Assembly (NCBI GenBank): GCA_905178155.1
Contig: CAJINV010000003.1
Span: forward strand, 10,411,732-10,475,731
Origin: Amoebophrya sp. A120
Taxonomy: Eukaryota > Protista > Dinoflagellata
Direction of reading: 5' to 3'
Length of the DNA stretch: 64,000 nucleotides
In this document: in pieces, positions 8,609 to 64,000 of the stretch
Layout of the letters: every line of letters starts with the position of its first letter
Numbering within the stretch: position 1 is the first letter of the stretch
The notes under the pieces: model-generated
Database searches by the model: none
The model's input: the letters and a program-made list of their open reading frames with translations, nothing else
What the model was told of the DNA's origin: nothing
Translations under genes and position numbers: made by a program

Positions 8609-8871
8609 GATCTAAAGCTAAGCGCTCGCATCTGAAACTCAAACTCGAACTTCGTTTTGAAACTCAAACTCTAAGAACTGACGTTTGCAATCTTTTAATC
8701 CATGGCAATTAATATCTATACAAGAAGTATAACTCCTATTGCTGAGCTGCGGAAGTTAGAACTTTGCAACAGGGAGGAAAATCGCCCACGCCGGAAATTT
8801 TTTCTCAATTTTCAAACTTTCCAAAGCTGTCGCGATTTGCGAGAACGGCCAACGGCCAACGGCCGACGGCC

Positions 8872-24300: not shown

Positions 24301-26050
24301 CTTATAGACGTCGATAGGAGCGACAACGCAACAGACAAAGTGTTCATGGCTGAAGGCGGGATCCACTGCAAATGTGTGAACGCAGGATTTTCGTCTGCAG
24401 GTGGCCGAGACAAATTCGTTGCGCCAACGTTTGATGCCTACGATCAGGGGTGGTTAAACGGAGGTGATGACTTTTCCGATACGGAATACGGAGTGGGCTA
24501 CGCGTACTTCCCTTTTTTTAAAAGTAGCGTCTCCGTCGGGCGGTTGAAAGTTGTCACTTTGGAATGAGAAACAGTCTACAGGTCGTACAGGATGTAGTAG
24601 TAGTAGTAGGACTACTTAAAGGCACGTAGAATTAGAAAAAAGTAGAACTGGAAACAGAAGTGAGTGTTTCAAAATCTTGAACCGATTTGACCCGCCTGAT
24701 TTTCTTGGAGCACCCTGCATGCGCGATTTTGACAAAACTGAACGAAGAGCTTTCGTTGTTCATCTCACAGGTCTGACTATGGGGGCATCTCAGACTACGG
24801 AGAGTATTGCTTCGCCTGGGAAGATATCCTGTGCAAAAGTATCGCACTCGTATTGCAGTCATGCTTTACAAATCTCTTTCGTAAGGTGAATCAGCATTAC
24901 AAATTTCATTTCTCATGCTGAGTGGTGCATTTGCATACGAGTGCGATAATTTTCCAACTCATAGAAGATATCCTTTGCATACCGATGGCGGTCGTACTCC
25001 TTTGGAGGAATTCAGTTGCAGAATCTGCATCGTAGCAAATCAGCACTGTAAATGCTTATCGTTATCCTCTTACCTTTACATTTACTATACAACGGTGCGG
25101 TGTCTGAGTTGCGGAAATCTGTGTAATATGCAACTTTCCTGCAGCGTGTATACAACGCATCACTACAGGTCAAGCAGAAGCACGGCATCAAAATAAAAGT
25201 AGAAGCTCGCTCCGCCTACTATCGTGTGTACCCAGACTTGGCTTTGATTTCTGGTGGACTTTGCATTGCAATATACGCATTTTTCCATCGTGCGGCCGCC
25301 TACAATAGTTTTGCAATGCAGCGAGGATGAGACCGTTGGTGGTAAATCCGGGGACTTTCCTGAGTGCAATCCAGTAGTGATGACTAGCAGGATATCAAGA
25401 TGAAAACTGCCTCAGCCCAACAAGTTGAAGTTTCGAGAAGTGGTTGCTTTGCAAATTGAGAAACTTGACACGCGGCAGAAACACCTTGTTTGTCTGCCGT
25501 AGCCGTGTGAGCAAATTGCAACGCAGCAGTGGCGCTGCGATGTGAAACAGTGCTGTAGTTCACATTCTCATACTCATGATCGACAAAAAGGCTTTCAGGG
25601 TGGGTCGTAAATATTTCCTATGCCTGGGCTTGGGCTGGGGACTCTCGCCATTTTGATCCAAGACCGAGGTCGTTGATACGTTCAACATGTATGCATTGCA
25701 TATATGATGTCTTGGTCTGGAAGGTTGCAACATCGGAAGCTGTCTTTGGATTCTAAAAAAATAAAAAAAAATCAAGAACAGCGCCCGTATTGCATGACCA
25801 GCAAGAGGCGTTCAGTTTGTGCTACGCGGGGAGCGCATTTCTCACAGGCGGAATAGGCATCAGGATGGAAGCCCTCGAAAAATTTGTGATGCTAGGGTGT
25901 GCGTCGTGGGTCATGCAGAATATGCATGACAAGGCTGGCATCAATCTCGCAGACCCAGACACGTTTGCAGTGGATAACATAACAAACGGACATAAAAGTG
26001 TTTTTGGTCGTGGTGCAGCTTCTTTGACTTTGACAATACACTGCATCAGT
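18400..26050 (+). CDS. Multi-exon uncharacterised protein with an N-terminal hydrophobic segment, interrupted by two large TIR elements; limits uncertain
   Basis: Frame is restored across both elements (LSHYA|NSCTG and HPVIG|AAANGGNSS); further exon-like blocks at ~24400, 24650, 24915 and 25790. Confidence 0.45.
18573..21974. mobile_element. 3.4-kb TTAC...GTAA TIR element with 8-bp TSD, inside an apparent exon
   Basis: TIR TTACTCCGAAAGC/GCTTTCGGAGTAA, extending imperfectly inward; CACTATGC at 18565-72 and 21975-82. Confidence 0.92.
20390..20540 (+). ncRNA. Candidate structured RNA module, copy B (inside the 3.4-kb element)
   Basis: ~150 nt shared with 33546-33695, with stem-preserving substitutions. 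Confidence 0.5.
22526..23859. mobile_element. 1.33-kb TTAC...GTAA TIR element with 5-bp TSD, inside an apparent exon
   Basis: TIR TTACAAACGGCG/CGCCGTTTGTAA; GATCG at 22521-25 and 23860-64; internal GCCAAAACGAG 11-mer arrays in both orientations. Confidence 0.92.
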
Positions 26051-35500: not shown

Positions 35501-37273
35501 TGAGGCTCAGACTCAAGCTCGACCTTGTTGATTCATCTAAAACTTAAGCTAAAAACTGACTCAGGAACTGGAGCTGGCGCGTGCATTCTTTTAATCCAGC
35601 AAGGCAATTACTTCTCTACAGTTATGTGTATGGATATCATATAGGTGGATCAAGTCCCGCGCTCGTTGATGATCGTCGCCATTGGCAAGGGACAGCCGTG
35701 CAGGTGTTGCAGTTCAACATAGTGCAAAGGCGCAAAAAATTTTTTGGGTCGTGTTTCCAGATTAGGCTGCGAGTAGGATTAGCCGTCCTCGCCCCCCCCA
35801 GGCTGTTGCGTACGGCGGTAAGGAATCAGAGCGCGAAGATCAGTGCTAGCGAGCAGATAGGCAAGCCCGCGCGCCTGCTGTCAAGCAGCAAGCTTGCGTA
35901 TGGCGGATGGAGAAAGGTGAGCGCAAACTCTGCCAGGCGCGCGGGGCTAGCTTCGCTCCGTGAAGATCGAAAATGTGCGCCGGTTTGCCGGCAGCCGCCG
36001 GAGGAGCGGGAAGCCGATCGGGCGTGGGCCTTCTGCATGTGAGGGGAGTGCGTACGCAGCCCATCCCCAGTGAGGTCTGGGTCTGCGGCATCTACACCCC
36101 GGCAGGAGGTTCGCCGGCGCTTCACCTTCGGGGCTTTGCAAAATGTGCGCCGGTTTGCCGGCGTGCGTCTATGGTTCAGCATGATGTAGCGTGATACTTT
36201 GAGAATGAACACAGGAAGCGCACGGGCACAACGCTCGCGGCCAAAAGTCTGGGACAGGTCGCCGCGCACTCCTGTAAAGATATACAAGCAAGAAGCGAAC
36301 CCCCACAGCGGGAATGTCGTGTCTGTGTGTTTCGGAGGATGTGTTCGGCCTAGTGATGATCTTTATATATCAGCGGGCTGGCTTGGTTTGGCGTGATAAA
36401 GATAAAGACAAAGACAAAGGCTATATCTCGCGCGAAGTTGCACTTGCAGGGCGAATAACCGTACGCGTATAGTATTCATTGACACCCATTACTTTTGCCG
36501 TCCTTGGTTATCTACATCGTTCCAGTCAGATTGTTCTAGTCTATCAACCCATAAACAACCTTGCTGAGGCTTTCCAAGACGCCGGTCAGAACTTCACAGC
36601 GAAACTGCTCAAGATGCAGAAGCGTATTGCTCTTGGCATATGGAATTGGATGAAGTACAGGATTGACACTGCGAGCAAGCGTTTGTGAAGTTGTTTCTGA
36701 TGTTACGGACCACACAGTTTGGTATTCGTTTTGAGATTTCATTTTGTTTGATTTTGTGCTATTCGGAAGTGCGAGAATGAAACTACACAAAAATTCGCAC
36801 GAACAGAGTACTTTTTTGATGCGCTACCGGGTCCAGGCGTTCCGGTGACGTGCGTGTATGGTTCGGGTTTACCCACGCTCGCGAATATGACTTACGGGAA
36901 CGGGTGGGACCAGGAAGGGACCGAGTTCGGCTACGAAAGCGGCGACAGCGTCGTACCGGTACGGTCTTTAATTCGCTGCCACGAGTGGAATGAAATACCG
37001 CGACATCCGTCTGTTGAGCTCGTGGAAGTCCCCCAGGCCTCACACGGCGATACGCTCCGCCGACCAGAAGCGCTCCACGCGTTCAGGGAGATACTTCAGG
37101 CACTTGACAGCTCTGCCGCTGCTCTCCAGGAGCATGATGTAAAAGTACCTGCTGATGTCGTGGACTACAAGGAGCGCGGACCCCGAGGAACAGAACCAGC
37201 AGCAAGAAGCGACATAGAGGGCGCTCACGGGCGAACCGATCATGACGCTGAGGAAGAGTTGTACTACATTTGA
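32581..37273 (+). CDS. LCAT/PLA2G15-family phospholipase/acyltransferase; exons ~32581-33384, 34009-34481, 36559-36623, 36807-37273
   Basis: PILFIGGMGASIIEA, DCFLDNFKL, YDFRKSP, VLVTLSEG (Ser), LSGPFGG, VTCVYG, GDSVVP (Asp), SHGDTL (His). Confidence 0.88.
33546..33695 (+). ncRNA. Candidate structured RNA module, copy C (in LCAT intron 1)
   Basis: Homologous to 20390-20540. Confidence 0.5.
34630..34967. mobile_element. MITE-like foldback with a nested ~42-bp-arm hairpin (34688-34781)
   Basis: Perfect 23-bp IR TTTCATACCTATAAAGTACTAGC; inner IR TATATATCCAAAAAATGGGCCGCATATTT. Confidence 0.8.
35090..35610. repeat. Dispersed relative of the satellite-bearing repeat, with two 135-bp units
   Basis: 35134-35403 matches 2150-2385; the end TTTTAATCCA..GGCAATTA matches 8693-8711. 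Confidence 0.88.
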
Positions 37274-43580: not shown

Positions 43581-43802
43581 GCTGGGGGCCTGGTTTCTTT
43601 GTTGATGCGTGACCACTTCATCTTGAGGCGGGGCACTTCGTTCAATTTTGGATAGCAAGATGAACAGGCGGTTTCGGCGTCGCAGCTGCAGGACCAAGAT
43701 AAGAATGTTGCGGCTTTCGATTGTTTCGATGGCCTCTCTTGCAACTTTACACTTGACTACGAGCAGACGCAACGCTGCTCCGAACTGGAGCAAATCCCAT
43801 TC

Positions 43803-45710
43803 GTGCCCGGTGTCGGACAGGCATGTCGGCTAACGCAGACTGTTTCCAGATTGCTGGAACTACGAAAGACGCGAAATATAAAACAGCGTCAGCAAGCTTG
43901 TAGTTCTGCTCCTGCCACGATGAAGGCAACAGCTGCGGGATCGTGCCAAGCGGCATCATCTATGTGGACGAGACACTTCGTGATCATCGACTATAAGGAA
44001 TTTGTATGCCTGGCGGAGGATCTGACGACTAGCATCGACGTGCGCGCAGGGCTGCAAACGGCGTTGCCTTTGGACATCGGAAGCGTTACTTTCGAAGACG
44101 ACTCGTTGCCGGTGAGCACCACAATAAGGTTTTGGGACCGTTTTTTCCACAGATGGTCCCGTTCCGGGAAGCCCTGGAGCTTCAGTGCGAGCATTGATCC
44201 GTTTGTGGCGCAGGCCTGTCTCAACCTGCTACTGTTTGTGGATTGGTGCCTGCGGTTCAGTGAGAAGAAAAATGTGCCGGCGCAGTTTCGGCAATGCCTG
44301 GCATCAGACGACTTGGACAATCCTTTAGTTGCACGGGTACGCAACATGTGCATCAAACGTGGAGAAAAGGCTCGTCAAGTAGAGACTTCGCCGTCGCAGC
44401 ACCATCAGCAAAGAAATGCGCAGGGAAAGAGCGCAGCACATGCACAGACGAATGTAAAAGTAGCTGCGGCAGAACACCAGCTTGTCACGGGGATCGCAAC
44501 GGAAGGGATCGGCAGCTCCACATCATCCGCGACATCGCCGACCGCGACCTCCACTGCGGATTCCAACCAGGGGTATGAGAACAATCTCACAGACAGAGCA
44601 AGCTCAGGCACCTCCAAGCGCAGAAAAACCTCACTAGTGTCGTCCGGCGAAAAACAAGGCTCTGACTGCTTACTGCAACAGGCGGATGGACAAGATAGAG
44701 ATACAGATTTGCAGGAGGACGACCTCCAACACGAGGCGCATAATGAGCAGCGTGACAAAAGGGAGCAAGATGTTGAAGACGCTGATGCAGTCGCTGCAAT
44801 GAATGCGATTCGCGAAGGTTTTCGACGCTACGTGGAAAGTCTTGACAAGTATTCCACGAGCGCTAGTATGAATCGTCCATTCCTTGTTTCTGAAGAACGT
44901 GCGCCAGGAGATAGCGAGACGAGCAACGGCACCATTCAGAAAGATCCGCGTCCGCGGCTTCTCGATGCTTGCTGTGGCTCCGGGACTATCACTGCAGTTG
45001 CATCTGCTTCGGGTCGATTTAGCCAAATTATTTCCTGCGACAAAAGCCCGGAATTTCTGGACCGCGCTGCGAAAAATCTGGATTTTGTCGCAGCGGATTC
45101 TTCTCTGCAGCGAAGCGCTCAGTGTGGTGCAGGAGCCACAGCCACCGGTACGACGAGTGCAGGAGCACAATCCGTGCTACTGGCCATGCGCACGAAAGTT
45201 CATTTCGTCGAAAATGATTGGATTGCAGATGCAGAGCATGATGCGGAGAGCGGGGACAAGGAAACCGAAAGGCAAACAAGACAAAATGCGGACGCATCTT
45301 CAATGAACAACGCAACACAACGCGATCAATTGCGAGGAGTCGCATCGACAGGAACGCTGGGTAGAAAGCTTAGGCAAAAGAACGACGTTTTTCTGCCGTC
45401 AAAGCGACTAGGAACGGCAAGTGGTGACGCAGAAAATGGCTTCACGACACAAAGCACACCCCTAGTCGTGATGGCGAATACCCCATGGGGTCGGCGGTTC
45501 GGTGGAGAAGGTGATGCGTGTGGGGTCCTAGAGGGGGTAATTCGGCAATGCGAATCTAATGCGGACCTATTCGGCTTTCTTGTCCCTCCCCGGTCATTGG
45601 AGAGTGCGAAAAAGCTTCTCGACATTCATCTTTGCGTGCCGCTCGGCAAGCCCGCGCTTTTTCTAATCGGAACGGTAAATAAAAAGAGAAAAACCACGAT
45701 GAGTCAATGA
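43803..45710 (+). CDS. Class I SAM-dependent RNA methyltransferase (UPF0020/THUMP-associated type); upstream exons likely from ~41800
   Basis: FSASIDPFVA, LLDACCGSGT (motif I), SCDKSPEFLDRAAKNL, VMANTPWGRR (NPPxG-like). Confidence 0.75.
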   Translation: MPGVGQACRLTQTVSRLLELRKTRNIKQRQQACSSAPATMKATAAGSCQAASSMWTRHFVIIDYKEFVCLAEDLTTSIDVRAGLQTALPLDIGSVTFEDDSLPVSTTIRFWDRFFHRWSRSGKPWSFSASIDPFVAQACLNLLLFVDWCLRFSEKKNVPAQFRQCLASDDLDNPLVARVRNMCIKRGEKARQVETSPSQHHQQRNAQGKSAAHAQTNVKVAAAEHQLVTGIATEGIGSSTSSATSPTATSTADSNQGYENNLTDRASSGTSKRRKTSLVSSGEKQGSDCLLQQADGQDRDTDLQEDDLQHEAHNEQRDKREQDVEDADAVAAMNAIREGFRRYVESLDKYSTSASMNRPFLVSEERAPGDSETSNGTIQKDPRPRLLDACCGSGTITAVASASGRFSQIISCDKSPEFLDRAAKNLDFVAADSSLQRSAQCGAGATATGTTSAGAQSVLLAMRTKVHFVENDWIADAEHDAESGDKETERQTRQNADASSMNNATQRDQLRGVASTGTLGRKLRQKNDVFLPSKRLGTASGDAENGFTTQSTPLVVMANTPWGRRFGGEGDACGVLEGVIRQCESNADLFGFLVPPRSLESAKKLLDIHLCVPLGKPALFLIGTVNKKRKTTMSQ

Positions 45711-47374
45711 ATTGTGAAACGTAGACCGTACCGTTGATGACCTACAATTGGAAAAAAGCCGTCCGCATGGAAGGAAATAAAGAGGCACGGGCACTAGAAA
45801 ACGAAGATTGAATTTAAAATGAATTTGAAAAATGCCAATAGTTGATACGTTCAGGCTAATGCAGCTGCGTAATGCAACATTCTTAATGGGATTAGAAGGA
45901 GGAAGAAGAACCAGACCGGTACGCGTTTGGTTTTTCGTTTTTTGCGTTCTCAATATGTTGTTGAAATGGGAATGGCGGTCACCAAGCTGCAAGTTCATTA
46001 CCGGCAGTGAGGCCATGCTTAATTGGGTACGGTGTGTCGGTCTCAGTCCTCTCGACGCTGCTTGTGCATTCGACCGCACCAGCAGTGGAAAAGCGATTCC
46101 ACCGTGCTCTTCTCCCCACGATTTTGGTACGGGACCGTTGTGCTCTCTCCATGATTTTGAAGATGTGGGGCGTCGATGGCGGTTCGCGCGCAAATTTTTC
46201 GAGAGCACCTGTTTGGCGCCGGCCTCTGCTCTTTCGCATAGATACATATTGATACTTCTCCTCTGGTTTATCAAACGCGTTTCCCCCACCTGTTGGCACT
46301 TCTTTCATGATCATGATCGATAGTGATTAGTTGTCGGTGGTGCGTCTTTTTCCTTTCTTGTTCTACTTCATGATGCAGATGTTTTGTCGTACTTTATGTA
46401 TATAATATTAGATATAATCGGTCCTGCTCTGCAGTCTGCTCGCATAGGAATAGAGTGTTACTGTGCGCTCGTTTCAAGAAGAGCACAGACACATGAAATC
46501 GTCGACCTCTGACACGAACAAGGATCATATAGATTTACATAAATGCTGCAAAACCACAAGACGAGGTTCCTTGCGCCAGAAGATGAGATTGATCAAGATC
46601 AACATGGCCCTGACTCTCATTGCATTTCATGACTTTGCGAATGGGACAGGTATGGATCACATATTCTCGTTCATCTCCACGGCCACCGTCTCAAAGTCTA
46701 AGGCCTTGGGACTCAAAATGAAGAGAATAATTAAGCTCGTAAGTAGATCCTATTTCCCACCTACGATGTTGTGTCGGTGTCTCCTGTCTGTCAAGTAGTA
46801 CTTTAACTTTTATTCGGTCAAAGGCTGTACATTATTTTCGTTGATATTTTGAAGCAACTTTTACTTAGACCCTATAGCTATAGCTATATGCATATGCTCT
46901 TCATCATGTTTCTCATGAATGCCAATTTTTATCAGGTCATGTCTTAGGAAAAAATCTAAACCGTGGAATCCTTCTTGAGTTAGAGTTTAAAAGTTTTCCG
47001 AAAAATTGAAATTCTTGATATTGACCTGAGTGTGTTGGCTACAACGGGCGGCTGTAGTGAGCCCACGTTCTTCAGGATCGGAAGCTTTGTGATGGCAACA
47101 GTTGTACTAGCCATCTGTTTTACTAAGAACAAGACGTGTGTTTTTTCAGCTATCGCTTTCAGAAGTTTTCTGTAAAATTATTAACGAGCGAAATTGTAAA
47201 ATACTTGTACTTGTTCACTTAAGACGCATCAAACGCTGGTCTTTAGATTTGGCATTGTGCAGGATGTAGCCGGCGCTTGTACTATCCTTCCCGCCAGCTG
47301 CAATGGACAGTGCCGGCGATACGTTCCTCCCATTTTTATTGTATGACACCAGTGCTCCCTCGGGCTAAACAAGA

Positions 47375-50300
47375 ATGACAATGGATATGCGAATGTTGCT
47401 GCAGAGGCTGAACCTGGAGTTGGACTGCCCGGAAGACCTGCAGAAGAGCAGTGGATACGATGCGGTTGAAAGCGACGAATTGGCGGAGCGTTTCGACTAT
47501 GCATTCCAAAAGTTGTGCTTGTGTCTTTGCCCTCGTTCTCGTACAACTAATTGCGAGCATGCAACAAGACAGATCAAGTTCTCTCTCTCTCTCTACCTCC
47601 TCTGGCATGAAAAACTGCATTTCTCTTGCTTGTTCTTAAGAACATTGTTTATAAAGCAGGCATAATACATATTTGGAAATTGAATTTGCACGTAGTGGTG
47701 GTGTCGCGGCGATACTTTAATTGCAACGCATAGTCCCGTTTCGCCCTTCCGCTTGCGCACGCTGTTCAGGGAGGTAGACGCGAATGATGACGGTCACTTG
47801 ACGAAGGCGGAATTCTCGAAAATCCTGGCAGTGCTGAGGATCCGCTTCCGCCGGGATCAGCCCGAAAATGTGATTACCGACGTCCCGAATGAGTTGTGGA
47901 CACAATTAGTGGAGCCTTTGCTAGTACTGTTTCCCGGTGCACCAGCTGAAGCTGAAAAAGGTCAAGATGCAGCAGGATCATACGGAGCGAGGCAGCCGCA
48001 TCAACGGGAAGACTCCTGCGGCGGTTCCTCGTTATTGACAAGGACAGCAACGACGGTCGTAACTCACCCTGCGTCAGGGTTTCACTTCCAAGCCTTCCAG
48101 CGTGTCGTGCGCTTGCTGTTTCTGGAAGTCCTTCTGCATGACGACCTGATCGGAGACTTTCAGTTCTTATCAAACAAAAAAACTGGTATGCGTGTAGTAG
48201 CTCTTACTTTGTTGGAGTGGCAAAGCCAACAAACCTCCTGTGCATCTTCACGTTGTTCACGACACTAAATGAAACGACTTGTTATGGTGCATCTGAACCG
48301 CTAGCCCTAGCACATGAAGAAAGAATCACTCCAGGTGAAGATGAAGGAAACGCGATACCAGGATGTCTATCTACGAGGGCAGGCGTAGACACTCTTCTTG
48401 CATGTTCTGGATAAATGCAGAACAGCTTTTTTCTGTGATAGTTTTCGGCGATCGACTACAACGCGGAAACAATACATAGGCGCCGTGTTCTTGACTCTCG
48501 TCTTGTGGTTGAGGGCAATCCCGATCATTTAACAGAAGGCATGATGAAAGACAAGAAGACGACGAAGGACCAAGAAGACGGCGACGAAGGACGCAAGAAC
48601 TGCAACTACAACAGCGCACTGAAGAGAAGTACGCGAGGAGCGGCTCCCCCTCCTCCGAAATTTTTTTCAAGAAAACCTCCGTCATTTTTCCAGCCGGGTG
48701 AATATGTATATGGTGAAGATCCGGCGATCAGAACGACTAGCATGATCAACAGTGATATGCGTTTGAGACCAGCGACGCCGCGGATAACCGCTACTGGAGC
48801 AAGTAGCAAGAGTAAAGGCTCCAACTATAATTTGATTCAGCAGCGCTTCAGCTGTGAGACCATGCGTGACTTCTTGTTGGGCCCACGCGATTCGGACACC
48901 AAGGTTCGGTGGATATCTCTGTCGCACGCGGGAACGGATCCGGGGTGTCGCCTCGCAATGCTGCGACTGGCGGTGAAGTACAATCTTCACCCGTTGGCGG
49001 TCGAATGCGCCCTGTCCCTCCACGAGGAACCCGTGACTGGGCGAGTGATCAAGTATGGTCACAAGCTCCACGATCTCGCAGCTGCCACAAGGAAACCGGG
49101 GTTGAAGAAGACCAACGCCGCATCTTCCCCGCAGCTGCATAAACAACAAGGGCAGGAGCAGGCACCGACGACTTCCTCCTGTTTATGCACTGCCACGCCC
49201 GTGATCCCGTCATCTTTAAAAATGTCTCAGAAATGGCCTCGGGAATGTAAGGCGGAGGCAATTCCCACAACGCCGGCGCCCCTCATTGTGGTTGCAGGGA
49301 AGAGGGGCACACAAGGCGCCGAGCCGGGCCATCGCGAAGCAGCTTCCTCGAGACGCGGCGCCCGCTGCCGTATTTGGCGCATTTTTGTGGCGCGCAATGC
49401 GGGCCGCGGCTGGCGTTGACGTTCGGGCGCCGCCCGTTTGCCCCTTATCCCTTTGCCGGCCTCCCCTTGCATATATGGACGCGAAGTGCCGCAGCGCCAC
49501 ACTTGTGCCGGGCCTATCTGTGCCCGCTTTCGTTTTGTCGCAGGCGCGCCGGCGTCTTGTCCGCAGCCCGGTTCGAAGCATTGCAGGCGCCCCGTCTGCC
49601 CCTGCATTTCCGTCGCCCCGGCGGTTCAGTGCCTGCTCTGACAGGTTGCCTGGGACCTTCAGTGGGGCTGCCTCTGTAAGAAGGCAGTGCGTTGGCCTTG
49701 CCGCTGTTCCTTTCTTTGTTTCTGTGGCAGCCAGGCACGGGCCCGGCCTTGCTTTCTGCGCGGCGGACTGCTATTCTGGCCCTCCTCCCTTGTGGGCGGC
49801 AGGCACGGCCGGCCTCACCCGGGAGGGCAACCAACTGCCGGCCTCCCATTGGTTGGCCGCCTGCCGGCGCCGCTTGGCCACAGCCGGGCGCTTCGTCAGC
49901 CCATTGTCGTGGCGCATTGCTTTCGCACGCGCAGGCGCGCCCCTTGGCGCGGGGGGGATTTTGCCCTGCTTCTCTAGATCACAGGGCCACCGTGTCACGC
50001 GCGTGACACGGGCGGACCCGGCTTCGTTTTTTCTCGTCTCTTGCTGGTCTTGGGTGGTTTGGTGGCAAGCAGTATTGCTTCAGTCAGTTTCCCTCCGCTT
50101 CTACCGCCAAAGCCCAGGGCGCTGCCACGTGTGTGTGTCTATGATTTGCATCCAAGGCAGTCTTGGATCTGGGGTGAAGGCCTGCCTCAGCCCGCGAGCC
50201 CTTCCTGGCTTCTGCCAGCCGGACCGGCCGCCGGCCGACAGTCAGCCAGGCAGGCGCCCCCGCGCGGGCCGTGTTGGCCTTGCTTGGATGCAAGTGCCGG

Positions 50301-53300
50301 CGAAGGCGTTGCAGCGGCTTCTAGGCAAAGCCGAACCGTATGAAGCTAATGGGGCTGTTGAACTCACTGGCGCAGCCACTGGCGCCATGTGTGGCGCCGC
50401 TCCTCTCCCTCGGCACGACTTAGGCGCCCCCTTCACCAATGAGAGCGGCGGCCAGCAGCCGGCTGAAGCAGCAGCCGCCGGAGTTCGCGAGCGCGGCCCC
50501 CAGACCCAGAGTCCGACGATGATGAGCGTTGAGGAGCTTCAGCGCCCCGATTACAGCTGGCCCTTTGTAGATATTGCGTAGAGCAAAACTCTATTTGGCT
50601 TGTGGAGGCCACACGTTGTAAGCTATTTGGCTTGTGGAGGCCACATGTTGTGAATCAGTCAGAATCAGAAACGTCGCGAATGAGAATCAGAATCATGGTG
50701 AATGTGAATCGGGCTACGGTAGTAAAAAGACCGCGAATGAAGCGAAAAAAATTGAAAGGACCGGGCCAAGAAAGTAGGCAAAAAAAAAGGCCAAAGCGAA
50801 GCCACACGCGCTGCCGGGTGCCGCATTTCTGTAAAGGGAGGAAAAACGGCGAGGCCTTCGCATTTTTTTCTTTGGGGAAAAAACCTGAGAGCGTTTGCAT
50901 TTTTTTCCTTCAGGGAAAAACCTAAAAAAGTTCGCGCGATTTTCTTTTACAAAAAAACCAAAAAAGCTGCGCGCGATTTTCTATTACAAAAAAACCAAAA
51001 AAGTTGCGCGCGATTTTCTTTTACAAAAAAACCCAAAAAAGTTGCGCGGGATTCCCCCCTCGAAAAAAACCAAAACCGAAGACGGGCCATTTTCCCTGCC
51101 TTTCCCCGATGGTATGAGGCCGATCAGGCCGGCGATTTTTCACATTTCTGGCCTTTAGAAAATCGCGCGCAGCTTTTTGGGTTTTTTTGTAATAGAAAAT
51201 CGCGCGCAACTTTTTTGGTTTTTTTGTAATAGAAAATCGCGCGCAGCTTTATTGGTTTTTTTCTAAAAGAAAATCGCGCGAACTTTTTTAGGTTTTTCCC
51301 TGAAGGAAAAAAATGCAAACGCTTTCAGGTTTTTTCCTGAAGGAGAAAAATGCAAAAGCCGCGACGACATTTTTTCCCCAATAGCAGAAATGGCGCCACG
51401 ATTTTCCGCGTTTCGGCTTTTTCTGGTGTTGCTTTTTCGCGGGTTTCGCAGTGCCCTTGCTGGTTTTTTTTCAGCTTTTCAGGATGCCCCTCATTCGTCT
51501 CATATATTCGGCAAGAATTGCCGTACGGATCAAGTTCATAACGATCGCCACAGCCACCCGAGAGTGAGGGAATCGATGGCAAATCCGTCCGAGATTGATT
51601 CGATCGATCTCGGGCGCGGGCCGTTGCGCCGTGGCGAACGAGTCAGATCCTGTGAAAAAGGTGCCTTTGCGTGAAGGCTGCAAAGGGTCAAAATTTTCGC
51701 GAAACTGCGAAGGAGATCCGCGGCGCGGCAGTATTGCCGTCCTTTCCGGTGTTATGTTGCAAGGCCGCGGCATTTCCAAAGCAGTTGCGGAGTGATCTAC
51801 AGAGCAGGCCCAGAGCGCCCCTCGCGCGTCTCATATCTCGGATGGATGTTCTGCAGAGCACGCCCAGGCCGATTGCTAAGACTGGGCACGTGAATACTGT
51901 CGGTCGGTCCGACGGAGGGGGGCCGGAATGGTTGGCCGGCGCTTCGGGCAGTTCTTCGGGATTTGGGCGCGGCCAGTGAGCACGCAGCGAACGAAGGGGC
52001 GAAGAACTGTGGCGGGCGGAGAGTCCGGCGCAAGATTGTGCAGGTTTTTGCGGGTAAAGAGCAGGGCTGTGGAAGCCCGGCCGGCCCGGCCGCCGGGCTC
52101 AGGATGTAGAAGCTTCGCGCGCCGCAGCTGTCGCGTGCGACCTTGGCCGGCGACACCTACCGCACTGCGTTGATGGTAGGCGGCCCGGTGTGTGCCTTTG
52201 CAGGGGCAGGCCGCTGGCCCGGCGCGCTAGCTACCTAGCTGGGCACCCGGGGCAAGGCCGCCGATTGGGGGATGTGGGGAGGGTTGGGCCCGGTTTTTCT
52301 TTCTTCAGGGAAATCGTATGGGGGGGAAGAAGCCAGGGCCCCTCTCGGTTTTCCCCAAGGCGACCTGCTTGGCGTGTTTCTTACAAGCGCACAAGCAAAG
52401 GCGCGTCGGCGCGCTGGTTTGTATGTTCGCAGAAAGAAATTAGGAAACACGGCCCGCGCAACAGACGCAGGCCGCGGCGCGTGCTCGGACGGGCGGGCCG
52501 CACTGTGTGGGCCGCGCGCTCGCATGCGCGCCCTGTCAGCCGGCCACCAGCCGTCGCACGGATTGCCAGCCGGCCACCAGCTTTCTTTGCGCGCTGGGCG
52601 ACCACCTTTGTCCTAACCAGCGCGCAACACCCTCCGAGGGGCGCTCCCCGTTTTTCCGAACCGTGGCGCCATCGTGTCACGCGTGTGACGCGAGCGGCAT
52701 GCGCTTCAGTTTCGCAGCGTGGTGGCGTAGGGCGCGCGCCCCGGGGGTTCGCCGGGTCTGTGGTTTTGGGTCTATATCTATTGCCCGCGCCCAATCTTCG
52801 CGCCGGCCGGCGGTCCGCCCATGTAGGTTGTCCAGGACGGCGCAGATAATTCCCGTGGCCCGTCATTCCGTTGCTATGGCGTGCTCATCGTGTCGCGCGT
52901 CAGTGATGTGCGACGTATAAAAGCGACCAAGGCGATGACTCCGATGCGCGGCGATATATGCAAAGTCGGGACATTTCTGAGCAGATTCCTGGAGCATTCC
53001 TGAGGCATTTCCAGACCCCCTCTGATCACGGGCGGTCCGTGAGTAACCTGCTCGCGGTCATGCGCCACCAGTGGCGGAGACCCCGGCCCCCTCAGTGTTG
53101 GCACGACAACAGCACCGACGCCAGCCCCAGCCTTTGACGAAGAGACCCAGGGCGAGCACTGGTTCGTAAATGTGCCACTGTTTCGACTTTCGCGCCGGTC
53201 GGAGGCGGGGCTGCAGGAAGAGCAACAGACCACCGATCTGGATGAGGTTGTGAACCGGCGGTGCTCCGCGAGAGGACGCCAATCGAAAAGCAGCATAACA

Positions 53301-55439
53301 AAATGGAGTGGAGGTAAACGTAAGCAGGCTCGTACCAGCAGAACTAGGGTTCTGAGCGCCACGTCTCGGAGCACGAGCGCTTCCGACACGGACAATTGTG
53401 CGTCTTCTGACAGCTGCGACAGCCACGATGAAGAAGGTCGCGCAGCATATTGCTATCATGGAGATGAAGAGCAAGAGGTGCAGCTGCGCCAACATTATCC
53501 TAGGAAACTGAGGGGAAAAGCAGAAGCACAAGTACATCAACCACGGCGCTTTGTCAATGGCGATCCACCCCCGGGTCGAAGTTTCGTCGGTTATGGGAAC
53601 GCTTTCGATTTTTACCGAAAAGGAAAATGTAAATGTGGATCAGACGAATTCGAGTCTGGACTCGGACGACACGCAGGCGCAGTACGCACGGCGCGGAGAG
53701 GGGCGCCCGCTGAAAAAGAGGGATCCTGTTCTTGGAGTAGGCTTTTCTTGTCCTGTTGTCGTCGCTGGAAAGATCAAAGTAATAGCCACAACCAGTTGCG
53801 CCATCAGCAAGCCCGCTATACGAATTGCGGACATATAGTTCCGGATGATTACCCTTTGCAGATCGAGGTGGAAAGATCCAACCTGGGGCTGTTTATCGCT
53901 GGCAAACCAGACTTCGATACCTTGCTCACGGTTACCACGGATTGGCAACGAACACGCATCCGACCTACATCTACTTTCCTGCAGGCTGCAGGAAGCGTAG
54001 AGGGGAGTAGACTGTCACATGGAAGACCGCATAAGCGTCTAACTGCCAGGAGCCGAGCAAGGAGTGTAACGCAGTGGCGGTGGCAGAGAGGTGCAGGAGA
54101 TACAGAGCCACATCGCGGCCAGCGCAAACATCAAGGAAGACTCTCCCCGCAGAACTCAGTTGGCGAGTCTTTTTACTTCACTTCGCCACTTCTGGCGAAC
54201 GAAACATACTACGATCACGTGATTGGTAAGAAACGGCAGGAGAACAACTGCAATAAGAATAAACGGCAGCAGAGCAACTGCACGTCAGGAAAAAAACCGA
54301 CCCTTCTCTCATCTGCAGATGACGACGTGAAGGCCTACGAAGCTCCAAAAAGGAACAGGAGGGGCCCTGTTGTTCCGCCAGAATGCAAGAATAATATGTA
54401 CTACCACGCTGTCCCTGTCGCGCAGTCGCAGTATAATTTCCGTCCTACCCCCCCTTCCTCGCTGAGGTCGCCCGACCAAGGGCGGTATGCTGAAGATCGG
54501 TCTGCACCATTTTCCAACAATCGCGAATCTGATTTGGCAAGACTGGAAGGAATCGGCGACCCCTTTTCCCGCGTGTCCCTCAATCTGCTCAAGCCGTACT
54601 CGATGGTGCGGCAAGGAAATGTGAGCTGGCTGATCTACTCTATCCTGGATTCTTGCGTCGATATGCTGATACCAATTGGTGAGGCCTTTGAGACGCAACT
54701 GGAGGTGACCTCCTTGCGGCTGTGCGCACTGGAGAATCGACTCCCAATCGTCGAGGTAAAGCGCCTGTTGTTGCTGCAGCGGCACTTAGACTGGTTTCAG
54801 AGTGAGCTGCGTCCCCTCAGTCGCGTGCTGCAGCAACTGATTCGGGAGGAGCAAGAGGGCGTAGCGGGATCGGATGGCGAGCTGCGGCGGTATTTGGAGG
54901 ACGTAGACGACCACCTGGCCGGATTTCTCATGCAACTGGCGGCCCAGAGCCGCCTGTGCACTAGTCTCAAACAGGAACACGAGACGTACCGAGAGAACAA
55001 GGAAAACTCCGTGCTTTTTTTGCTCACCCTGGTCACGGTAGCGTGTCTGCCGATGCAGGCCTGGGCCGACTACTTTGGAATGAACTTTCAGAATGCTGAA
55101 GGGAAGCAAGGAGATCCTTTGCTCGCACTCGGTGGCTACGTATCGACGAGGAGAAAAAGTTTGTCATGATTACCCATGCCCATGTGCAGTTTTGCAATAC
55201 AAAATTGTCGTGCTGATGCGTAAGAATGCACTTTACATCAAGGAAAAGCTATCTGTGATGCCACTAAAGTTGAAGTTGTTGTATTTCATGCAAAACCAGC
55301 GGAATCAATCTGATTCTGAATCAATTGCGACTGCGACGACCTTTTTTTTCTGTTTCCATATGAGGGCGTGCTCGTGTACTGGGTTCTCGTCTTTGTCTGC
55401 ACCGCGGGGCTTCTGCTCGTTGTCGGAACGCGCATGTAG
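47375..55439 (+). CDS. CorA-family Mg2+ transporter with an N-terminal EF-hand; multi-exon
   Basis: EF-hand DANDDGHLTKAEF; VRWISL, KYNLHPLAVECAL, HWFVNVP, LIYSILDSCVD, YLEDVDDHL, TM1 with FGMNF, TM2 exon 55365-55439. Confidence 0.88.
47498..47737 (+). other. 240-nt non-canonical intron (TATGC...GCATA plus 5 nt)
   Basis: Join gives ERFD|VSPFRLRTLF in frame. Confidence 0.65.
49183..53046. mobile_element. 3.86-kb TTAT...GTAA TIR element inside the CorA coding region
   Basis: Imperfect TIR including CGCCCGTGATC/GATCACGGGCG; flanks CCTGT/CCTGC; removal gives TSSC|SRSC in frame. Confidence 0.85.
50810..51410. repeat. Large central inverted repeat within the CorA element
   Basis: Arms ~50875-51045 and ~51157-51340 nearly identical (the same peptide appears on both strands); similarity decays outward. 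Confidence 0.9.
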
Positions 55440-56308
55440 ATGGGAACTGGAACAAGGTAGAGACGAACTCCGCGACCGGTCAAGGCCCCATCATTTCGAT
55501 TGGTGGCACTGAGTCTAGCGACTTCGACTTTCGGCGCTTGTTGATTAATTTCTATTTCATTTTTATTCCTCATCGCGTTCGCGCTTGACGAGATTCGGAT
55601 TAAGAAGGAGAACTATTTTTTTTCCGGCGCCGACTGTTGGATGGACGGAGCTGCGGATTGGGGATGATCGCAGGTTTCTGTATAATCGGTTGCTGCCTTT
55701 CCTCCAGTTGTGGTGCTGGATGTGATTAGTATGAAAGCCACTGAAAAAGGTCTGTAACAAAAGGAAACAAGAAGAAGACGAGGAAAATAGAAATACTCCG
55801 ATGAGTATCAGAGTAGCTGATGTTCTTTGATGCGTCAATGTCAAATAGAAGTATGGCGCAGCTCCCCTTACTTTATTTGGTTTAATACAGATTTTCTGGT
55901 GCGTCAATCCATTCGCCCTGTCAAATATCGCTAATCCTAATTTTTTCACCCTTGCAATGACGAATGAGTCGTCCTTCAGCATCTATTTGTTCATCTTCTG
56001 ATGCTTACATACATCAAATGTTTTATATTTATCTTCCTTGCATGTAGCTGCACGTGACTTTTGGTTTTTTTTTCTGCTTCTTGGATTGTGTGTCGAGCAT
56101 TGGTTGGTTAACTCATCAGTCACAGCTTGCCGCGATGTGATCATCTTTTTGGGGCTCCCATGCGTATTGTCCTCCACGCTGTCGACCCACAAAAATCAAA
56201 AGAAAAATCAAAATGAGTGCAGGAGCACGCGATCGCCTCCCCCTACACTTGCAGTAAAATCAGTTCTTATACCATCCCAATACTAAGTTCGTACGCAAAT
56301 GCAGGATC

Positions 56309-58645
56309 GTGATATTCAAGACATTGAGAATGGTGTGGAAAACAATGACGAATTGGCGTTCCGAGGAAGAAGGAGAAGCATCTTCGCGCGCTAGTAAGTC
56401 TTTCGAGCAAAGAAGAGCCCCATGGGCAGGCCGAGGGCAAACACGAATCGTCTATAATCCTAATCGGACGTCGTGTGGTCACTTTTTTCGCAGCTCAACA
56501 TGGTTGACCCGGCATGACCGGAGGGCGAGTGTCTATTTTCTTCACACATCCGTAGACTATGAGGCGTGGCGTGGACGTTGGAGACCTCCTGGATGCGAGA
56601 ATTATTTTAGGGTCAAGAAAAGACGAGACACGGTGGAGGGGACGGCGGGAAAGCGAAACAAGGACAGAGCTGAGCTACCTCTGGCATCGTCAGCAAGGTC
56701 GAGGAGAAGAGGAAATATTTTTTGGGATCTCCCTGAAATGGAGCCGTGGTTCTTACTTTTGTACTCTATATCTATAATCTTGTGGCTGGCGTTTCGGTTT
56801 CAGTTGGAAGCGCAGGCTGTATCACGACAGCAAGGGCTTTGCGTTTTCGCAGCGACGCCTCCGATACCCGCCACTTTCGCGGAACAAGAGCGGGAACAGC
56901 TCCCGGAGGTACAGAGGGCCGCTCTGTGTGAGCTGAAGAAGGCGATATGGGAGAAGAATCCGGAGTACCTCTTCTACACGCAGAAGGCATTTCCGGCGGC
57001 CGAGCAAGCGGACTTGAGCCGGCGCCCCTACGAGCTTTTTCGTCTCCTTCCAATCGACGTCCCGCCTGAGTTGGTTCCCCACCGGCAGCGGACGTGTGCT
57101 GTTGTCGGCTCCAGTGGCGTTCTTGCAAAGCATCAATTAGGAAAGCACATCGACGCACACGATGTCGTCCTGAGAGTGAACGGCGCCCCTGCCGGCAACC
57201 GCGATCACAGCCAGCATTTGTCTGCACGACCGGTAGCTACATCGGCTGCTGCAAGAAGGAGCACAGAGAAACCACTGTCCAAGGATGTAGAATTGGGTCC
57301 TCTAGAGGACAGCAGCACACAGGACGCGGGCGAGGTCTACTCGGAGCAACTCGCGTCTATTGCCGGCACGCGCACGGACATTCGCCTCGTGAACGGCTGG
57401 CACATCTCGGAAGCAAAGCCCTATGTGTATGGAGTAGAGTCCACGAAGATAGTGGACTGGCCGCGGAAAGAAGTGCATGGAGAGGAGATTCTCCACTGGC
57501 GCAATCGAGACACCGTCGGTGACATCTTGGTCGGTGTTCTCCCGACCTCGGTCTACAAAAACGGGTTCTACGAGGGCGCCGATTTTACAAAATTCTCGTA
57601 CTGGATGAAGTACCTGGGAATCCGTCGCAAGGACATGCGAGACTACGAGTTTGCGTCCGCCTTGGGGCATGTGCGGACGGACCGTACTGACGGGCAGGGT
57701 ACGGGGGGGCCCACCGATACTTTCTGGGAGAGTATGTTGCACCTTGACAAGTTCTCGTCCACACGGCAGCACTTGCTCATTCAGGCTCGCAAGCTGCTGG
57801 AGCGAGATGGGCGGGCGGAAATGAAGAAATCGCACGTATACCGAAAGTTGCAGCGTCTCCGGAAGAAGCTACGGCAGAACTTGAGCACCTGGATTGCGCT
57901 GGCGAAGGAGAGGCGGACTATGTTGATCGCACAAAATAGATTGAACGACACTTGGAGCGAGGAAGCGCTGGTCGGTCCCTGGCTTGACTTGGATAACATA
58001 GAAGAGTTCGAACGTGAGCGAATTGATGAGGAAACCGCAGCAGCCGGTCGTCTTCTCAAGGACGAAAATGAGGCTGAGCAAGACGATACTGACCAGCTCG
58101 TAGATCATATTCATACCCTGTCGTTGCCGAGAGACAATAGACACGGAATAAACAACGTCGACGTGACGAGTGCACGAGACAGCACCAGCAGCAAGATCAA
58201 AGCCACGGAAGCGGTAGATCCTTTAGCAGTGGAGTACGCCCGAGAATACACGGATCTCCAGCCAGACAGCTTGCCATATTACTTGCTCACGCCGAACTTG
58301 CTTACCGGACTACAAAAATTTTTGAACGACTTCAAGCCCTCTGGCCCCAGCACCGGGGCTCTGGGAATCGGGTTGGCTTTGCACCTCTGCAACACCGTAG
58401 ACCTCTACGGCTTCGAGTCCGGCGTCGACGGAATGCAGGAACCGACAGAAGTCAAAGCCCATTATTGGGACGAAGGTATGGATCCTCAGAGGCGCACCGA
58501 GATGCAACAAGCGCACCCGATTCTCAGCGAGGAAAAGCGATGGCAGCAGCTCCGTATTCCCCACCCAGATAACCTACCGGGACTCATGCGCATCCCGGGT
58601 CTTGGCAGATTGGACGCCGCCTCGGAGGACTGTGCGAAAGTATGA
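56309..58645 (+). CDS. Glycosyltransferase family 29 (sialyltransferase-like) type II membrane protein; true start uncertain
   Basis: Sialylmotif L (TCAVVGSSGVL...IDAHDVVLRVNGAP...GTRT), S (PSTGALGIGLALHLCNTVDLYGF), III (HYWD), VS-like (AHPILSEEK); TM WFLLLYSISIILWLAF. Confidence 0.9.
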   Translation: MIFKTLRMVWKTMTNWRSEEEGEASSRASKSFEQRRAPWAGRGQTRIVYNPNRTSCGHFFRSSTWLTRHDRRASVYFLHTSVDYEAWRGRWRPPGCENYFRVKKRRDTVEGTAGKRNKDRAELPLASSARSRRRGNIFWDLPEMEPWFLLLYSISIILWLAFRFQLEAQAVSRQQGLCVFAATPPIPATFAEQEREQLPEVQRAALCELKKAIWEKNPEYLFYTQKAFPAAEQADLSRRPYELFRLLPIDVPPELVPHRQRTCAVVGSSGVLAKHQLGKHIDAHDVVLRVNGAPAGNRDHSQHLSARPVATSAAARRSTEKPLSKDVELGPLEDSSTQDAGEVYSEQLASIAGTRTDIRLVNGWHISEAKPYVYGVESTKIVDWPRKEVHGEEILHWRNRDTVGDILVGVLPTSVYKNGFYEGADFTKFSYWMKYLGIRRKDMRDYEFASALGHVRTDRTDGQGTGGPTDTFWESMLHLDKFSSTRQHLLIQARKLLERDGRAEMKKSHVYRKLQRLRKKLRQNLSTWIALAKERRTMLIAQNRLNDTWSEEALVGPWLDLDNIEEFERERIDEETAAAGRLLKDENEAEQDDTDQLVDHIHTLSLPRDNRHGINNVDVTSARDSTSSKIKATEAVDPLAVEYAREYTDLQPDSLPYYLLTPNLLTGLQKFLNDFKPSGPSTGALGIGLALHLCNTVDLYGFESGVDGMQEPTEVKAHYWDEGMDPQRRTEMQQAHPILSEEKRWQQLRIPHPDNLPGLMRIPGLGRLDAASEDCAKV

Positions 58646-60030: not shown

Positions 60031-62804
<2,774 letters not shown>

Positions 62805-63139
62805 TGAAACAAGTGAACTGCAACTCCGCCTCCGGTCCCGCACATTTGCCATGCAACATGGCGATAAATAATATATAAATTCCATGGCTCGGAACCTCCC
62901 AATAGAATAGCTCACCGGAAAATTTTAGTTGATTTCACTGGGGAACGATTTTCGTTTCCGGGCACCTGACCGCGTCGGACACAGCTACATCGCCGGGCAA
63001 AGCGGTCCGACTACACCTGCGGAGAAGTTGACGTCCCACCTTTGGGCCGCCCAAAAGTGAAAGCTTGCTAAAGCTTCAGGTTGAAAAACTGAAACCTCGC
63101 TGAGAAGTTGCGGCAGTCGTAGTTTTGGTCGTTTGTCAA

Positions 63140-63960
63140 ACAGTGAAACTTCACTGAGATTTCACTTTTTGAGCGCATTTTTTAAAAGATCTCATTTTGG
63201 GGCCACCCCGCCCAAGCGTGAGATTCCGGAAAAAGTGAAATCTCACTGAGATTTCACTTTCTGCACTGGAGCCCAGTGCGCCATGGAAAGTGAAATTTTT
63301 CAAAAAGTGAAACTCCACTGGAGTTTCACTTTTGGAAAGTGAAACTTTGGAAAAATAAAGTGAAATTTCACTGGAAAGCGAAGTTTTTCAAAAATTGAAG
63401 TTTCACTTTTTGAAGGTCTCATGTTTTAGCCTCCCAAAAGTGAAATTTTTCAGAAAGTGAAATTCCAGTGGAATTTCACTTTTCAAAAGTGAAATTTTGG
63501 AAAAAGTGAAACTCCAGTGGAATTTCACCCCATTTCCCAGTGGCGCACTGGGCCCCAGTGCCGCACTGGAGCCCAGTGCGCCACTGGGAAATGGGGTGAA
63601 ATTCCAGTGGAATTTCACTTTTTGAAAAATTTCACTTTTTGAAAAGTTTCACTTTTAAAAGTGAAATTCCACTGGAATTTCACCCCTTTCCCAGTGGCGC
63701 ACTGGGAAGTGGGTGAAATTCCAGTGGAATTTCACTTTTTGAAAAATTTTACTTTTTGAAAAATTTTACTTTTGGGAGGCTAAAACATGAGACCTTCAAA
63801 AAGTGAAATCTCACCGAGATTTCACTTTTTTTCAGTGCCGCACTGAACAAGGGGTGAAATCTCAGTGAGATTTCACTTTCAGAAAGTGAAACGTCACCGG
63901 GATTTCGCTTTTTTTCAGTGCCGCCCCGAAAAAGGAGTGAAATCTCACTGAGATTTCGCT
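63140..63960. repeat. Array of palindromic GTGAAA..CA(C/G)TG..TTTCAC units forming a nested foldback
   Basis: More than 10 palindromic units; long IR between 63409-63441 and 63768-63800. Confidence 0.9.
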
Positions 63961-64000
63961 GCGTTTTGAATTTCCAGTCGGGCTCCATCCTTCCCTCCCT

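What the first reader, a model, noticed from the sequence alone, without database searches (positions are those of the whole stretch)
49183..53046. 3.9-kb TIR element acting as an intron in a conserved transporter
CorA motifs lie on both sides (LHPLAVECAL before, HWFVNVP after) and the gene otherwise looks intact. Deleting 49183-53051 joins the frames exactly. This is the strongest case that multi-kb DNA-transposon-like elements are removed by the same rule as the ~120-nt introners, linking introners to their likely parent transposons.
Basis: partly seen in the sequence, partly recalled or inferred. Interest (0 to 1): 0.8.

Follow-up and report, generated by a model that had tools for sequence, protein, structure and literature searches.

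The report
3.9-kb transposon spliced as noncanonical intron
A 3.9-kb repeated, transposon-like insert in a magnesium-transporter gene of a parasitic dinoflagellate is missing exactly from the gene's RNA contigs, at cut sites that skip a normal GT-AG pair a few bases away, so it is likely a long member of an intron class already described in this organism rather than the parent of the short ones.

Summary
Observation confirmed. RNA-type contigs of two runs (one sample) join 49182 to 53052, skipping 3,869 nt (TT..GC); the DNA run carries both junctions and no empty site. The deposited Amoebophrya sp. A120 protein already has this join. The insert is a TTA..TAA element (49183-53046) with a 5-bp target duplication (CCTGT/CCTGC), imperfect TIRs, a central 193-bp hairpin and about 5-6 copies by depth. 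An in-frame GT..AG pair (49181/53043) is not used. Interpretation partly supported. The donor sits one base before TA, as 17 of 19 modelled introns here allow, and element plus one duplication is removed; but the acceptor lies 6 nt past the closing TA, not 4 as in 13 of 19. No transposase was found and no sequence is shared with short introns, so 'parent transposon' is unsupported. Kilobase TIR introners of A120 are catalogued (consensus up to 1.6 kb; Gozashti 2025); this is a longer member. The scan noted similar 445- and 1,055-nt introns in other genomes. CorA is real, but the insertion lies in a non-conserved loop. Interest 0.4.

The parts
47375..55439 (+). Gene for a 1,150-aa CorA-family Mg2+ transporter with an N-terminal EF-hand-like motif; five coding exons, four introns
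   Evidence: P0001 mapped to the window; all four introns seen as RNA joints; Pfam PF01544 E 1.3e-17; bacterial CorA structures E 1.1e-10, GMN motif present
48445..49182 (+). Exon upstream of the element (contains LHPLAVECAL)
49178..49182 (+). Left copy of the target-site duplication, CCTGT; kept in the RNA
   Evidence: sequence; RNA joint keeps T49182
49181..49182 (+). Canonical GT that, with AG 53042-53043, would give an in-frame intron of 3,863 nt; not used in the contigs
49183..53051 (+). The intron as removed: 3,869 nt, TT..GC (or TA..CT, one base further right) = element plus right duplication copy
   Evidence: joint 49182->53052 in X3 (depth 10.2) and X4 (5.47); P0001
49183..53046 (.). 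3,864-nt TIR element, TTA..TAA, about 5-6 copies by depth, no coding capacity found
   Evidence: X1 depth 125-170 in the arms against 26-27.5 in the flanks; foreign flanks at both ends
49183..49248 (+). Left terminal inverted repeat (11-nt core 49196-49206) and subterminal repeats
52972..53046 (-). Right terminal inverted repeat (core 53024-53034) and subterminal repeats
53047..53051 (+). Right copy of the target-site duplication, CCTGC; removed with the intron
   Evidence: sequence
50847..51366 (.). Central inverted repeat: 193-nt arms (50847-51039, 51174-51366), 94% complementary, built of 37-nt tandem units, 134-nt spacer
   Evidence: folds as the central hairpin
49988..50010 (.). Palindromic motif (8-nt arms, 4-nt spacer), copy 1; also in another long element of the window
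   Evidence: 0 expected in 100 shuffles; the pattern was built from these copies
52670..52692 (.). Palindromic motif, copy 2
53052..55139 (+). Exon downstream of the element (HWFVNVP and the CorA core)
47497..47736 (+). 240-nt non-canonical TIR intron of the same gene (C-TAT..ATA + 4 nt)
   Evidence: RNA joint in X4
48167..48444 (+). 278-nt non-canonical TIR intron of the same gene (T-TAT..ATA + 4 nt)
   Evidence: RNA joint in X3 and X4
55140..55364 (+). 225-nt GT..AG intron with the same TIR geometry (G-TAT..ATA + 4 nt)
   Evidence: RNA joint in X3 and X4

Best explanation
This is a multi-copy, 3,864-nt TIR element with no detected gene that sits in an exon of the CorA gene of Amoebophrya sp. 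A120 and is absent, together with one copy of its 5-bp target duplication, from the gene's RNA contigs, likely because the host's relaxed splicing machinery removes it as a long introner. Shown: the exact join, its absence from the DNA run, the unused GT-AG pair, the extra copies, the restored frame. Inferred: insertion by a cut-and-paste transposase encoded elsewhere (TIR plus duplication); the left end supplies the donor (T-TATGC, one base before TA, like 17 of 19 modelled introns, and resembling a GTATG-type donor without its G, a consensus recalled from memory); pairing of the TIRs and the nested fold of the element would bring the two ends together, so that length hardly matters; the acceptor falls at the end of the right duplication copy, which is the position that keeps the frame. 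Inferred and least certain: that the catalyst is the U2-type spliceosome, reported to lack U1 in this organism (Farhat 2021), about 60:40 against a structure-guided non-spliceosomal route.
For:: joint 49182->53052 in 2 of 2 RNA-type contig sets laid (record lengths 768 = 738 + 30 and 663 = 633 + 30), none in DNA run X1, whose contigs cross both junctions at single-copy depth; the same runs lack the gene's other introns, one of them GT..AG; deposited A120 protein has the join; depth ratio 4.7-6.4 in the arms, five foreign flanks shown (2 left, 3 right contigs), 1.6% pooled difference from the majority path, one internally deleted single-copy variant; end duplex beyond 299 of 300 shuffles; whole-intron fold pairs 49196-49206 with 53024-53034 and 49224-49248 with 52994-53016; 17 of 19 introns allow an N-TA donor (2.55 expected; maximum 10 in 200,000 simulations); a second TTA..TAA element (22526-23859, perfect 5-bp duplication) is a 1,339-nt intron in protein model P0002 with the same offsets allowed; no protein family or homologue inside.
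Against: RNA evidence is assembled contigs from one sample, with 30 letters on the short side of the joint, and the runs are only guessed to be RNA by the tool; raw-read run X10 laid nothing. 15 of the 19 introns rest on protein models not checked with reads here, and where several cuts fit the protein I chose the N-TA one. In the predicted fold the outermost TIR bases are not paired with each other; the right end forms a local hairpin over the acceptor. The acceptor offset (6 nt past TA) differs from the short introns (4 nt), so a fixed distance from the stem does not explain it. All four right ends seen begin the flank with C, which leaves the element/duplication boundary uncertain by one base. 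RNA also runs from the element's right arm into the next exon at depth 6.1 and 8.9, against 10.2 and 5.5 for the spliced form: removal may be incomplete, or the arm may hold a promoter. No mobilising transposase was seen (no genome available).
Confidence: 0.75

Rival explanations
1. Same element and same RNA-level removal, but by a non-spliceosomal, structure-guided cut-and-ligate route that reads the terminal stem and the duplicated bases, as proposed for nonconventional introns of euglenids.
For: An in-frame GT..AG pair 2 and 8 nt away is ignored; U1 snRNA was not found in A120 (PMC7789003 section 10); ends pair; terminal dinucleotides vary freely among the modelled introns.
Against: The donor keeps a fixed N-TA register in 17 of 19 introns, including GT..AG ones, which looks like a donor consensus; nearly all spliceosomal proteins and U2, U4, U5, U6 are reported in A120; the 240-nt intron is removed although its duplication has decayed (1 of 5).
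Confidence: 0.3
2. One reading: the element is, or derives directly from, the autonomous parent that mobilises the short introners.
For: Multi-kb size, several near-identical copies and an internally deleted variant, as expected of a deletion series; same 5-bp duplication length as the short introns. A transposase split by introns or lost from this copy could be missed.
Against: No Pfam family in 48 + 8 element frames scanned, no homologue of the 453-codon frame at E 0.1 among 7,988 candidates; termini differ (TTA..TAA against TA..TA); blastn finds no similarity to short introns of the window; RNA from the interior is patchy, depth 2-4.
Confidence: 0.08
3. The element is excised from the DNA (somatic or stage-specific), and the RNA reflects the excised template.
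For: Transposon-like ends; removal of element plus one duplication is what precise excision gives; contigs drop rare variants.
Against: DNA run X1 shows both junctions at single-copy depth and no empty-site joint; RNA contigs also hold element-to-exon sequence; the other introns of the gene follow a related register.
Confidence: 0.04
4. The join is a reverse-transcriptase template switch between the two direct repeats across a folded RNA (a known artefact, recalled from memory).
For: Direct repeats at both ends, strong fold, cDNA-based evidence only.
Against: The joint lies after the mismatched fifth base, with only one shared letter, not inside the 4-nt identity; it is the only continuation of the upstream exon listed in both runs; it is required for an intact CorA frame and shares the donor register of the other introns.
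Confidence: 0.04

Closest known systems
Introner elements (IEs) among non-canonical introns of Amoebophrya A25/A120 (Farhat et al. 2021, PMC7789003; outline, sections 10-12 and 16, passages of methods and of the supplement read)
   Same: Same organism by the label of P0001; non-canonical RNA-supported intron with terminal inverted repeats, 3-5-nt direct repeat at the boundaries, several copies, no transposase.
   Different: 3,869 nt, whereas that analysis was limited to 40-1,000 nt; ends do not fit the A120 consensus (TAT, 7 nt, run of A) nor the A25 one (TTA then two purines); acceptor offset differs from the short introns here.
TIR-type introner families of A120 in Gozashti et al. 2025 (PMC12130899; section 6, passages, all 58 A120 rows of supplementary file 8 read)
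   Same: Non-autonomous TIR introners with mostly non-canonical sites; kilobase families exist (fam86 1,619 bp, fam103 about 1,190 bp, fam38 808 bp with '5-bp TSD, TA/TA termini'; fam200 alignment about 2.5 kb, fam135 18.8 kb).
   Different: No row gives a TIR element length near 3.9 kb (alignment spans of 3.8-4.5 kb belong to families with short consensus); the table has no sequences, so membership in one of the 58 families could not be tested. No LTR- or transposase-like frame found here, unlike the report for fam38.
Nonconventional introns of euglenids and TIR/TSD introns of Fritillaria (review PMC11282704; passages read)
   Same: TIR stem joins non-canonical ends, TSD-like repeats at the junctions, lengths up to several kb in euglenids.
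   Different: Unrelated lineages and end motifs; homology not implied.
Non-autonomous class II (TIR) transposons / foldback-like elements (general knowledge)
   Same: TIRs, subterminal repeats, target duplication, internal deletion variants, large internal inverted tandem array.
   Different: Far larger than a MITE; TTA..TAA ends with a 5-bp duplication were not assigned to a superfamily by any search; removed from RNA without changing the protein frame.

Membership tests
Amoebophrya introner element (Farhat 2021) | RNA-supported intron with non-GT-AG ends | tested here: met
   joint 49182->53052, TT..GC, X3 and X4
Amoebophrya introner element (Farhat 2021) | 8-20-nt inverted repeat between the 5' and 3' ends | tested here: met
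   exact 11-nt core at +14 / -13, imperfect outer part
Amoebophrya introner element (Farhat 2021) | 3-5-nt direct repeat at the exon/intron boundaries | tested here: met
   CCTGT / CCTGC (sequence)
Amoebophrya introner element (Farhat 2021) | Repeated in the genome | tested here: met
   depth ratio 4.7-6.4 in the arms, foreign flanks at both ends; whether other copies are introns was not seen
Amoebophrya introner element (Farhat 2021) | Common A120 end motif (TAT, seven variable bases, run of A); a family trait, not part of the class definition | tested here: not met
   TAT at +2 but no A run; right end reads TTAC on the other strand
Autonomous TIR transposon / parent of short introners | Encodes a transposase | tested here: not met
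   split or highly divergent genes could be missed; the atlas search did not complete
Autonomous TIR transposon / parent of short introners | Shares terminal sequence with short introners | tested here: not met
   window only; genome-wide test not possible
MITE | Short (a few hundred bases), high copy number | tested here: not met
   3,864 nt, about 5-6 copies
Non-autonomous TIR transposon | TIRs, target duplication, dispersed copies, no transposase | tested here: met
Non-autonomous TIR transposon | Empty site in a relative; cognate transposase in the genome | not testable with these tools
   no genome held; no CorA orthologue returned
A120 family 38 (Gozashti 2025) | 5-bp TSD, TA/TA termini, about 808 bp, frames like Copia/Gypsy | tested here: not met
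   5-bp TSD yes; termini TTA/TAA, 3,864 nt, no family hit
U2-type spliceosomal intron | Removal through a branched lariat by U2/U5/U6 | not testable with these tools
   contigs cannot show lariats
CorA/Mrs2 Mg2+ transporter (host gene) | CorA domain with GMN motif before the last membrane helix | tested here: met
   PF01544 64.5 bits over cut-off 27; YFGMNF aligned to IYGMNF of bacterial CorA

The most novel reading that the evidence does not exclude
Amoebophrya A120 splices by a transposon-end code rather than by GT-AG: the donor is fixed one base before the TIR's TA whatever that base is, even when an in-frame GT-AG pair lies 2 and 8 bases away, and the acceptor follows the end of the target duplication (4 nt past TA for TA..TA elements, 6 nt for TTA..TAA elements), independently of length up to at least 3.9 kb. 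The long TTA(C)..(G)TAA elements would be a separate, still active class with a shared internal palindrome and an unknown mobiliser, neutralised on insertion by this code.
Probability: 0.35. Interest if true: 0.7.

Novelty: new member of a known kind. Interest (0 to 1): 0.4.

Why it matters
How Amoebophrya removes tens of thousands of non-canonical introns is stated as open in the genome paper. This locus is a sharp test substrate: the imperfect duplication pins the cut to within one base, a canonical in-frame pair is available and unused, the ends are 3.9 kb apart, and the acceptor offset differs from the short introns of the same gene, so stem-distance, duplication-matching and consensus models predict different products. 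It extends the RNA-supported size range beyond the 1-kb limit of the original analysis. It does not identify the transposase behind the introners, and both the intron (in the deposited gene model) and kilobase TIR introners in this strain are already on record.

Tried and rejected
No whole genome is held for this window, so no genome-wide copy or transposase search. No run on record as RNA was listed as a holder; raw-read RNA run X10 laid 0 reads, which is no test; X5-X9, X11, X12 and X2 were never laid, so read evidence covers only 46500-56400 and the other long elements are untested by reads. A relaxed TIR/TSD scan is at chance level (about 300 hits at this element's score in shuffles), and a stricter one misses this element (10 hits, 3-17 in shuffles): sequence pattern alone does not prove it. 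Metagenome contigs: 0 matches for two element patterns; viral contigs: 0 for the palindrome. Rfam: four hits, all far below gathering score, hairpin artefacts. Longest internal frame: no homologue. No CorA orthologue for an empty-site comparison (one search returned only P0001; proteins of 384-1,224 aa searched). Protein atlas gave no answer. Roy et al. 2023 is not held and may bear on novelty. An 8-bp duplication (5 of 8) and a 4-bp duplication with asymmetric ends were considered; 5 bp is preferred because three other TTA..TAA elements in the window have 4-5 of 5 at the same place, though they were picked partly on that feature. The GT..CT cut at 49181 fits the protein but not the RNA, which keeps T49182. 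LCAT orthologue alignment only confirmed that the model P0007 is sensible.
Full report
1. What is in the sequence. The stretch 49183-53046 begins TTA and ends TAA and is flanked by CCTGT (49178-49182) and CCTGC (53047-53051). Deleting 49183-53051 joins the upstream frame (LHPLAVECAL) to the 708-codon downstream frame (HWFVNVP, CorA core); deleting only the element does not. The TIR is imperfect. Eight of the first 14 bases match, a score that shuffled windows reach about 300 times; there is an exact 11-nt core that occurs only at these two places in the window, followed by subterminal repeats. The arms are GC-rich (0.65 and 0.63 against 0.54-0.55 in the flanking exons) around a central 193-nt inverted repeat of 37-nt units.

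2. Host and gene. The downstream exon finds one protein at E up to 0.001: P0001, 1,150 aa, 100% identical, labelled Amoebophrya sp. A120 by its sources. It maps to five exons and already joins the two sides of the element, so the intron is in the deposited gene model. CorA identity is solid (PF01544; bacterial CorA structures at E 1e-10 with the GMN motif), but the insertion lies in a long unaligned loop; LHPLAVECAL aligns only weakly and HWFVNVP not at all.

3. RNA and DNA reads. Twelve runs were listed, none on record as an RNA holder; four were laid on 46500-56400. X3 and X4 (one sample, guessed RNA) lack the gene's other introns (X4 all three, X3 two of three), one of them GT..AG, and both show the joint 49182->53052, with contig lengths that leave no letters between. 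The joint keeps T49182, so the cut is TT..GC or, one base right, TA..CT. X1 covers introns and intergenic DNA evenly, crosses both junctions at depth 26-27.5 and shows no empty site. X10 laid nothing. Limits: contigs, one sample, 30 letters on the short side, rare variants dropped.

4. It is a repeated element. In X1 the arms have depth 125-170, 4.7-6.4 times the flanks; this copy differs from the majority path at 42 of 2,577 letters, 1.6%. Two left and three right contig ends run into foreign flanks, and a single-copy variant lacks two internal stretches. All right ends shown match through C53047, so the boundary between element and duplication is uncertain by one base.

5. No coding capacity found. 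No Pfam family in the element's frames of 50 aa or more (8 long frames inside the element among the 37; 48 frames); no homologue of the 453-codon frame; Rfam hits are sub-threshold hairpin matches. Blastn against the rest of the window finds only short stretches, the best being a palindrome shared with another long element, and nothing that I could place in a short intron's ends.

6. Is it the same rule? Three protein models give 19 introns of 183-3,869 nt: four read-checked (P0001), 12 from P0002 (unnamed library, 100% identical to window exons) and three from P0007 (A120 label). Seventeen of 19 allow a cut one base before TA (2.55 expected). With that cut, the best stem register leaves a 4-nt tail after the closing TA in 13 of 19 (one of them at noise level, 3 of 16 matches), 6 nt in 2 of 19, which are the two long TTA..TAA elements, and other values in 4. 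Donor register and net result agree; the acceptor offset does not, and the short-intron offsets would frameshift CorA (3,867 nt). For the 15 introns without reads the cut was my choice among those that fit the protein. An in-frame GT..AG pair at 49181/53043 is the nearest of 24 in-frame GT/GC..AG pairs within about 60 nt, and the contigs use none of them.

7. Mechanism. Shown: precise absence from RNA contigs, presence in DNA, extra copies, frame restoration. Inferred: transposition by an enzyme encoded elsewhere; end pairing (duplex -27.8 kcal/mol, 1 of 300 shuffles as low; whole-intron fold joins the ends) would make the 3.9-kb distance irrelevant; the left end supplies a GTATG-like donor lacking its G (consensus recalled); the acceptor follows the right duplication copy. 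I favour the host's U1-less spliceosome (components listed in PMC7789003 section 10) over a non-spliceosomal route about 60:40. Against a simple stem model: the outermost TIR bases are unpaired in the predicted fold, and the acceptor offset varies by element type. DNA excision and a reverse-transcription artefact are each unlikely (section 3; the joint lies beyond the mismatch, not inside the repeat identity).

8. What is known. Farhat 2021 (PMC7789003; outline, sections 10-12, 16, passages of methods and supplement) describes TIR/direct-repeat introners in A120, analysed only 40-1,000-nt introns, and argued against general transposase-mediated mobilisation. Gozashti 2025 (PMC12130899; section 6, passages, supplement files 1, 3, 7, 8 searched, all 58 A120 rows seen) lists kilobase TIR introner families in A120 (up to 1,619 bp consensus; longer alignment spans) and states that autonomous and non-autonomous TIR elements both make introns in several species. 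The review PMC11282704 and Gozashti 2022 (PMC9860276) were read as passages. Four paper searches (listings only for the other hits) showed no description of this element, of a 3.9-kb TIR intron in A120, or of the two acceptor offsets; Roy 2023 is not held, supplementary figures are not visible, and the published family sequences could not be compared. Earlier notes of this scan report similar 445- and 1,055-nt introns in other genomes (unchecked); none for this genome.

9. Verdict. Real, RNA-supported non-canonical intron formed by a multi-copy TIR element with no detected gene: a long new member of the known Amoebophrya introner class, not shown to be a parent of the short introners. Its value is as a discriminating substrate for the open question of how these introns are recognised. 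Interest 0.4.

Noticed in passing
window 52492-53081: RNA contigs run from inside the element's right arm into the next exon (X3 depth 6.1, X4 8.9, the latter with letters of other copies), while no exon-to-element contig at the left junction is listed; downstream exon depth is about 2-3 times the upstream one. Could be an element-borne promoter, a trans-splice acceptor or a stalled second step; a local hairpin is predicted over the acceptor (53037-53057).
   Followed up: partly
window 22526-23859: 1,334-nt TTA..TAA element with a perfect 5-bp duplication and strong TIR stem; protein model P0002 treats element plus duplication (1,339 nt) as an intron. Not checked with reads.
   Followed up: partly
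window 18573-21974: 3,402-nt TTAC..GTAA element with an 8-bp perfect duplication and 13/14 TIR, upstream of the first exon of P0002; carries three copies of the same internal palindrome as the CorA element although the duplication length differs.
   Followed up: partly
window 27429-28772 and 24866-25051: TTAC..GTAA elements (1,344 and 186 nt, 5-bp duplications) nested inside larger introns of model P0002 (2,078 and 503 nt) rather than forming intron boundaries.
   Followed up: partly
window 50259-51019 and 51170-52137: DNA run X1 shows a single-copy variant of the element lacking these two stretches, and one contig that enters the central repeat array at 50945 from foreign sequence; depth over the central array is lower (2-3 copies).
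   Followed up: no
window 55140-55364 and 33400-34002: Introns that start with GT and have the same TIR geometry as the non-canonical ones (G-TAT..ATA + 4 nt), i.e. apparently canonical donors co-opted from the duplication.
   Followed up: partly
window 34484-36557: 2,074-nt non-canonical intron in the LCAT-family gene model P0007, holding a short foldback and a diverged copy of the tandem unit seen at 2280-8610; orthologues exist (P0008, P0009).
   Followed up: partly
window 2280-8610: Long array of near-identical 120-nt units (read by eye), between two copies of a flanking sequence (about 1-240 and 10700-10940).
   Followed up: no
window 60100-64000: Glycerol-kinase-like exons (recognised from memory, no call) separated by 0.6-1.1-kb repeat-rich introns.
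   Followed up: no
window 56258-58645 and 43656-45710: Long single frames: sialyltransferase family GT29 (E 9.5e-30) and a weak methyltransferase match. All genes seen in the window lie on the + strand.
   Followed up: no
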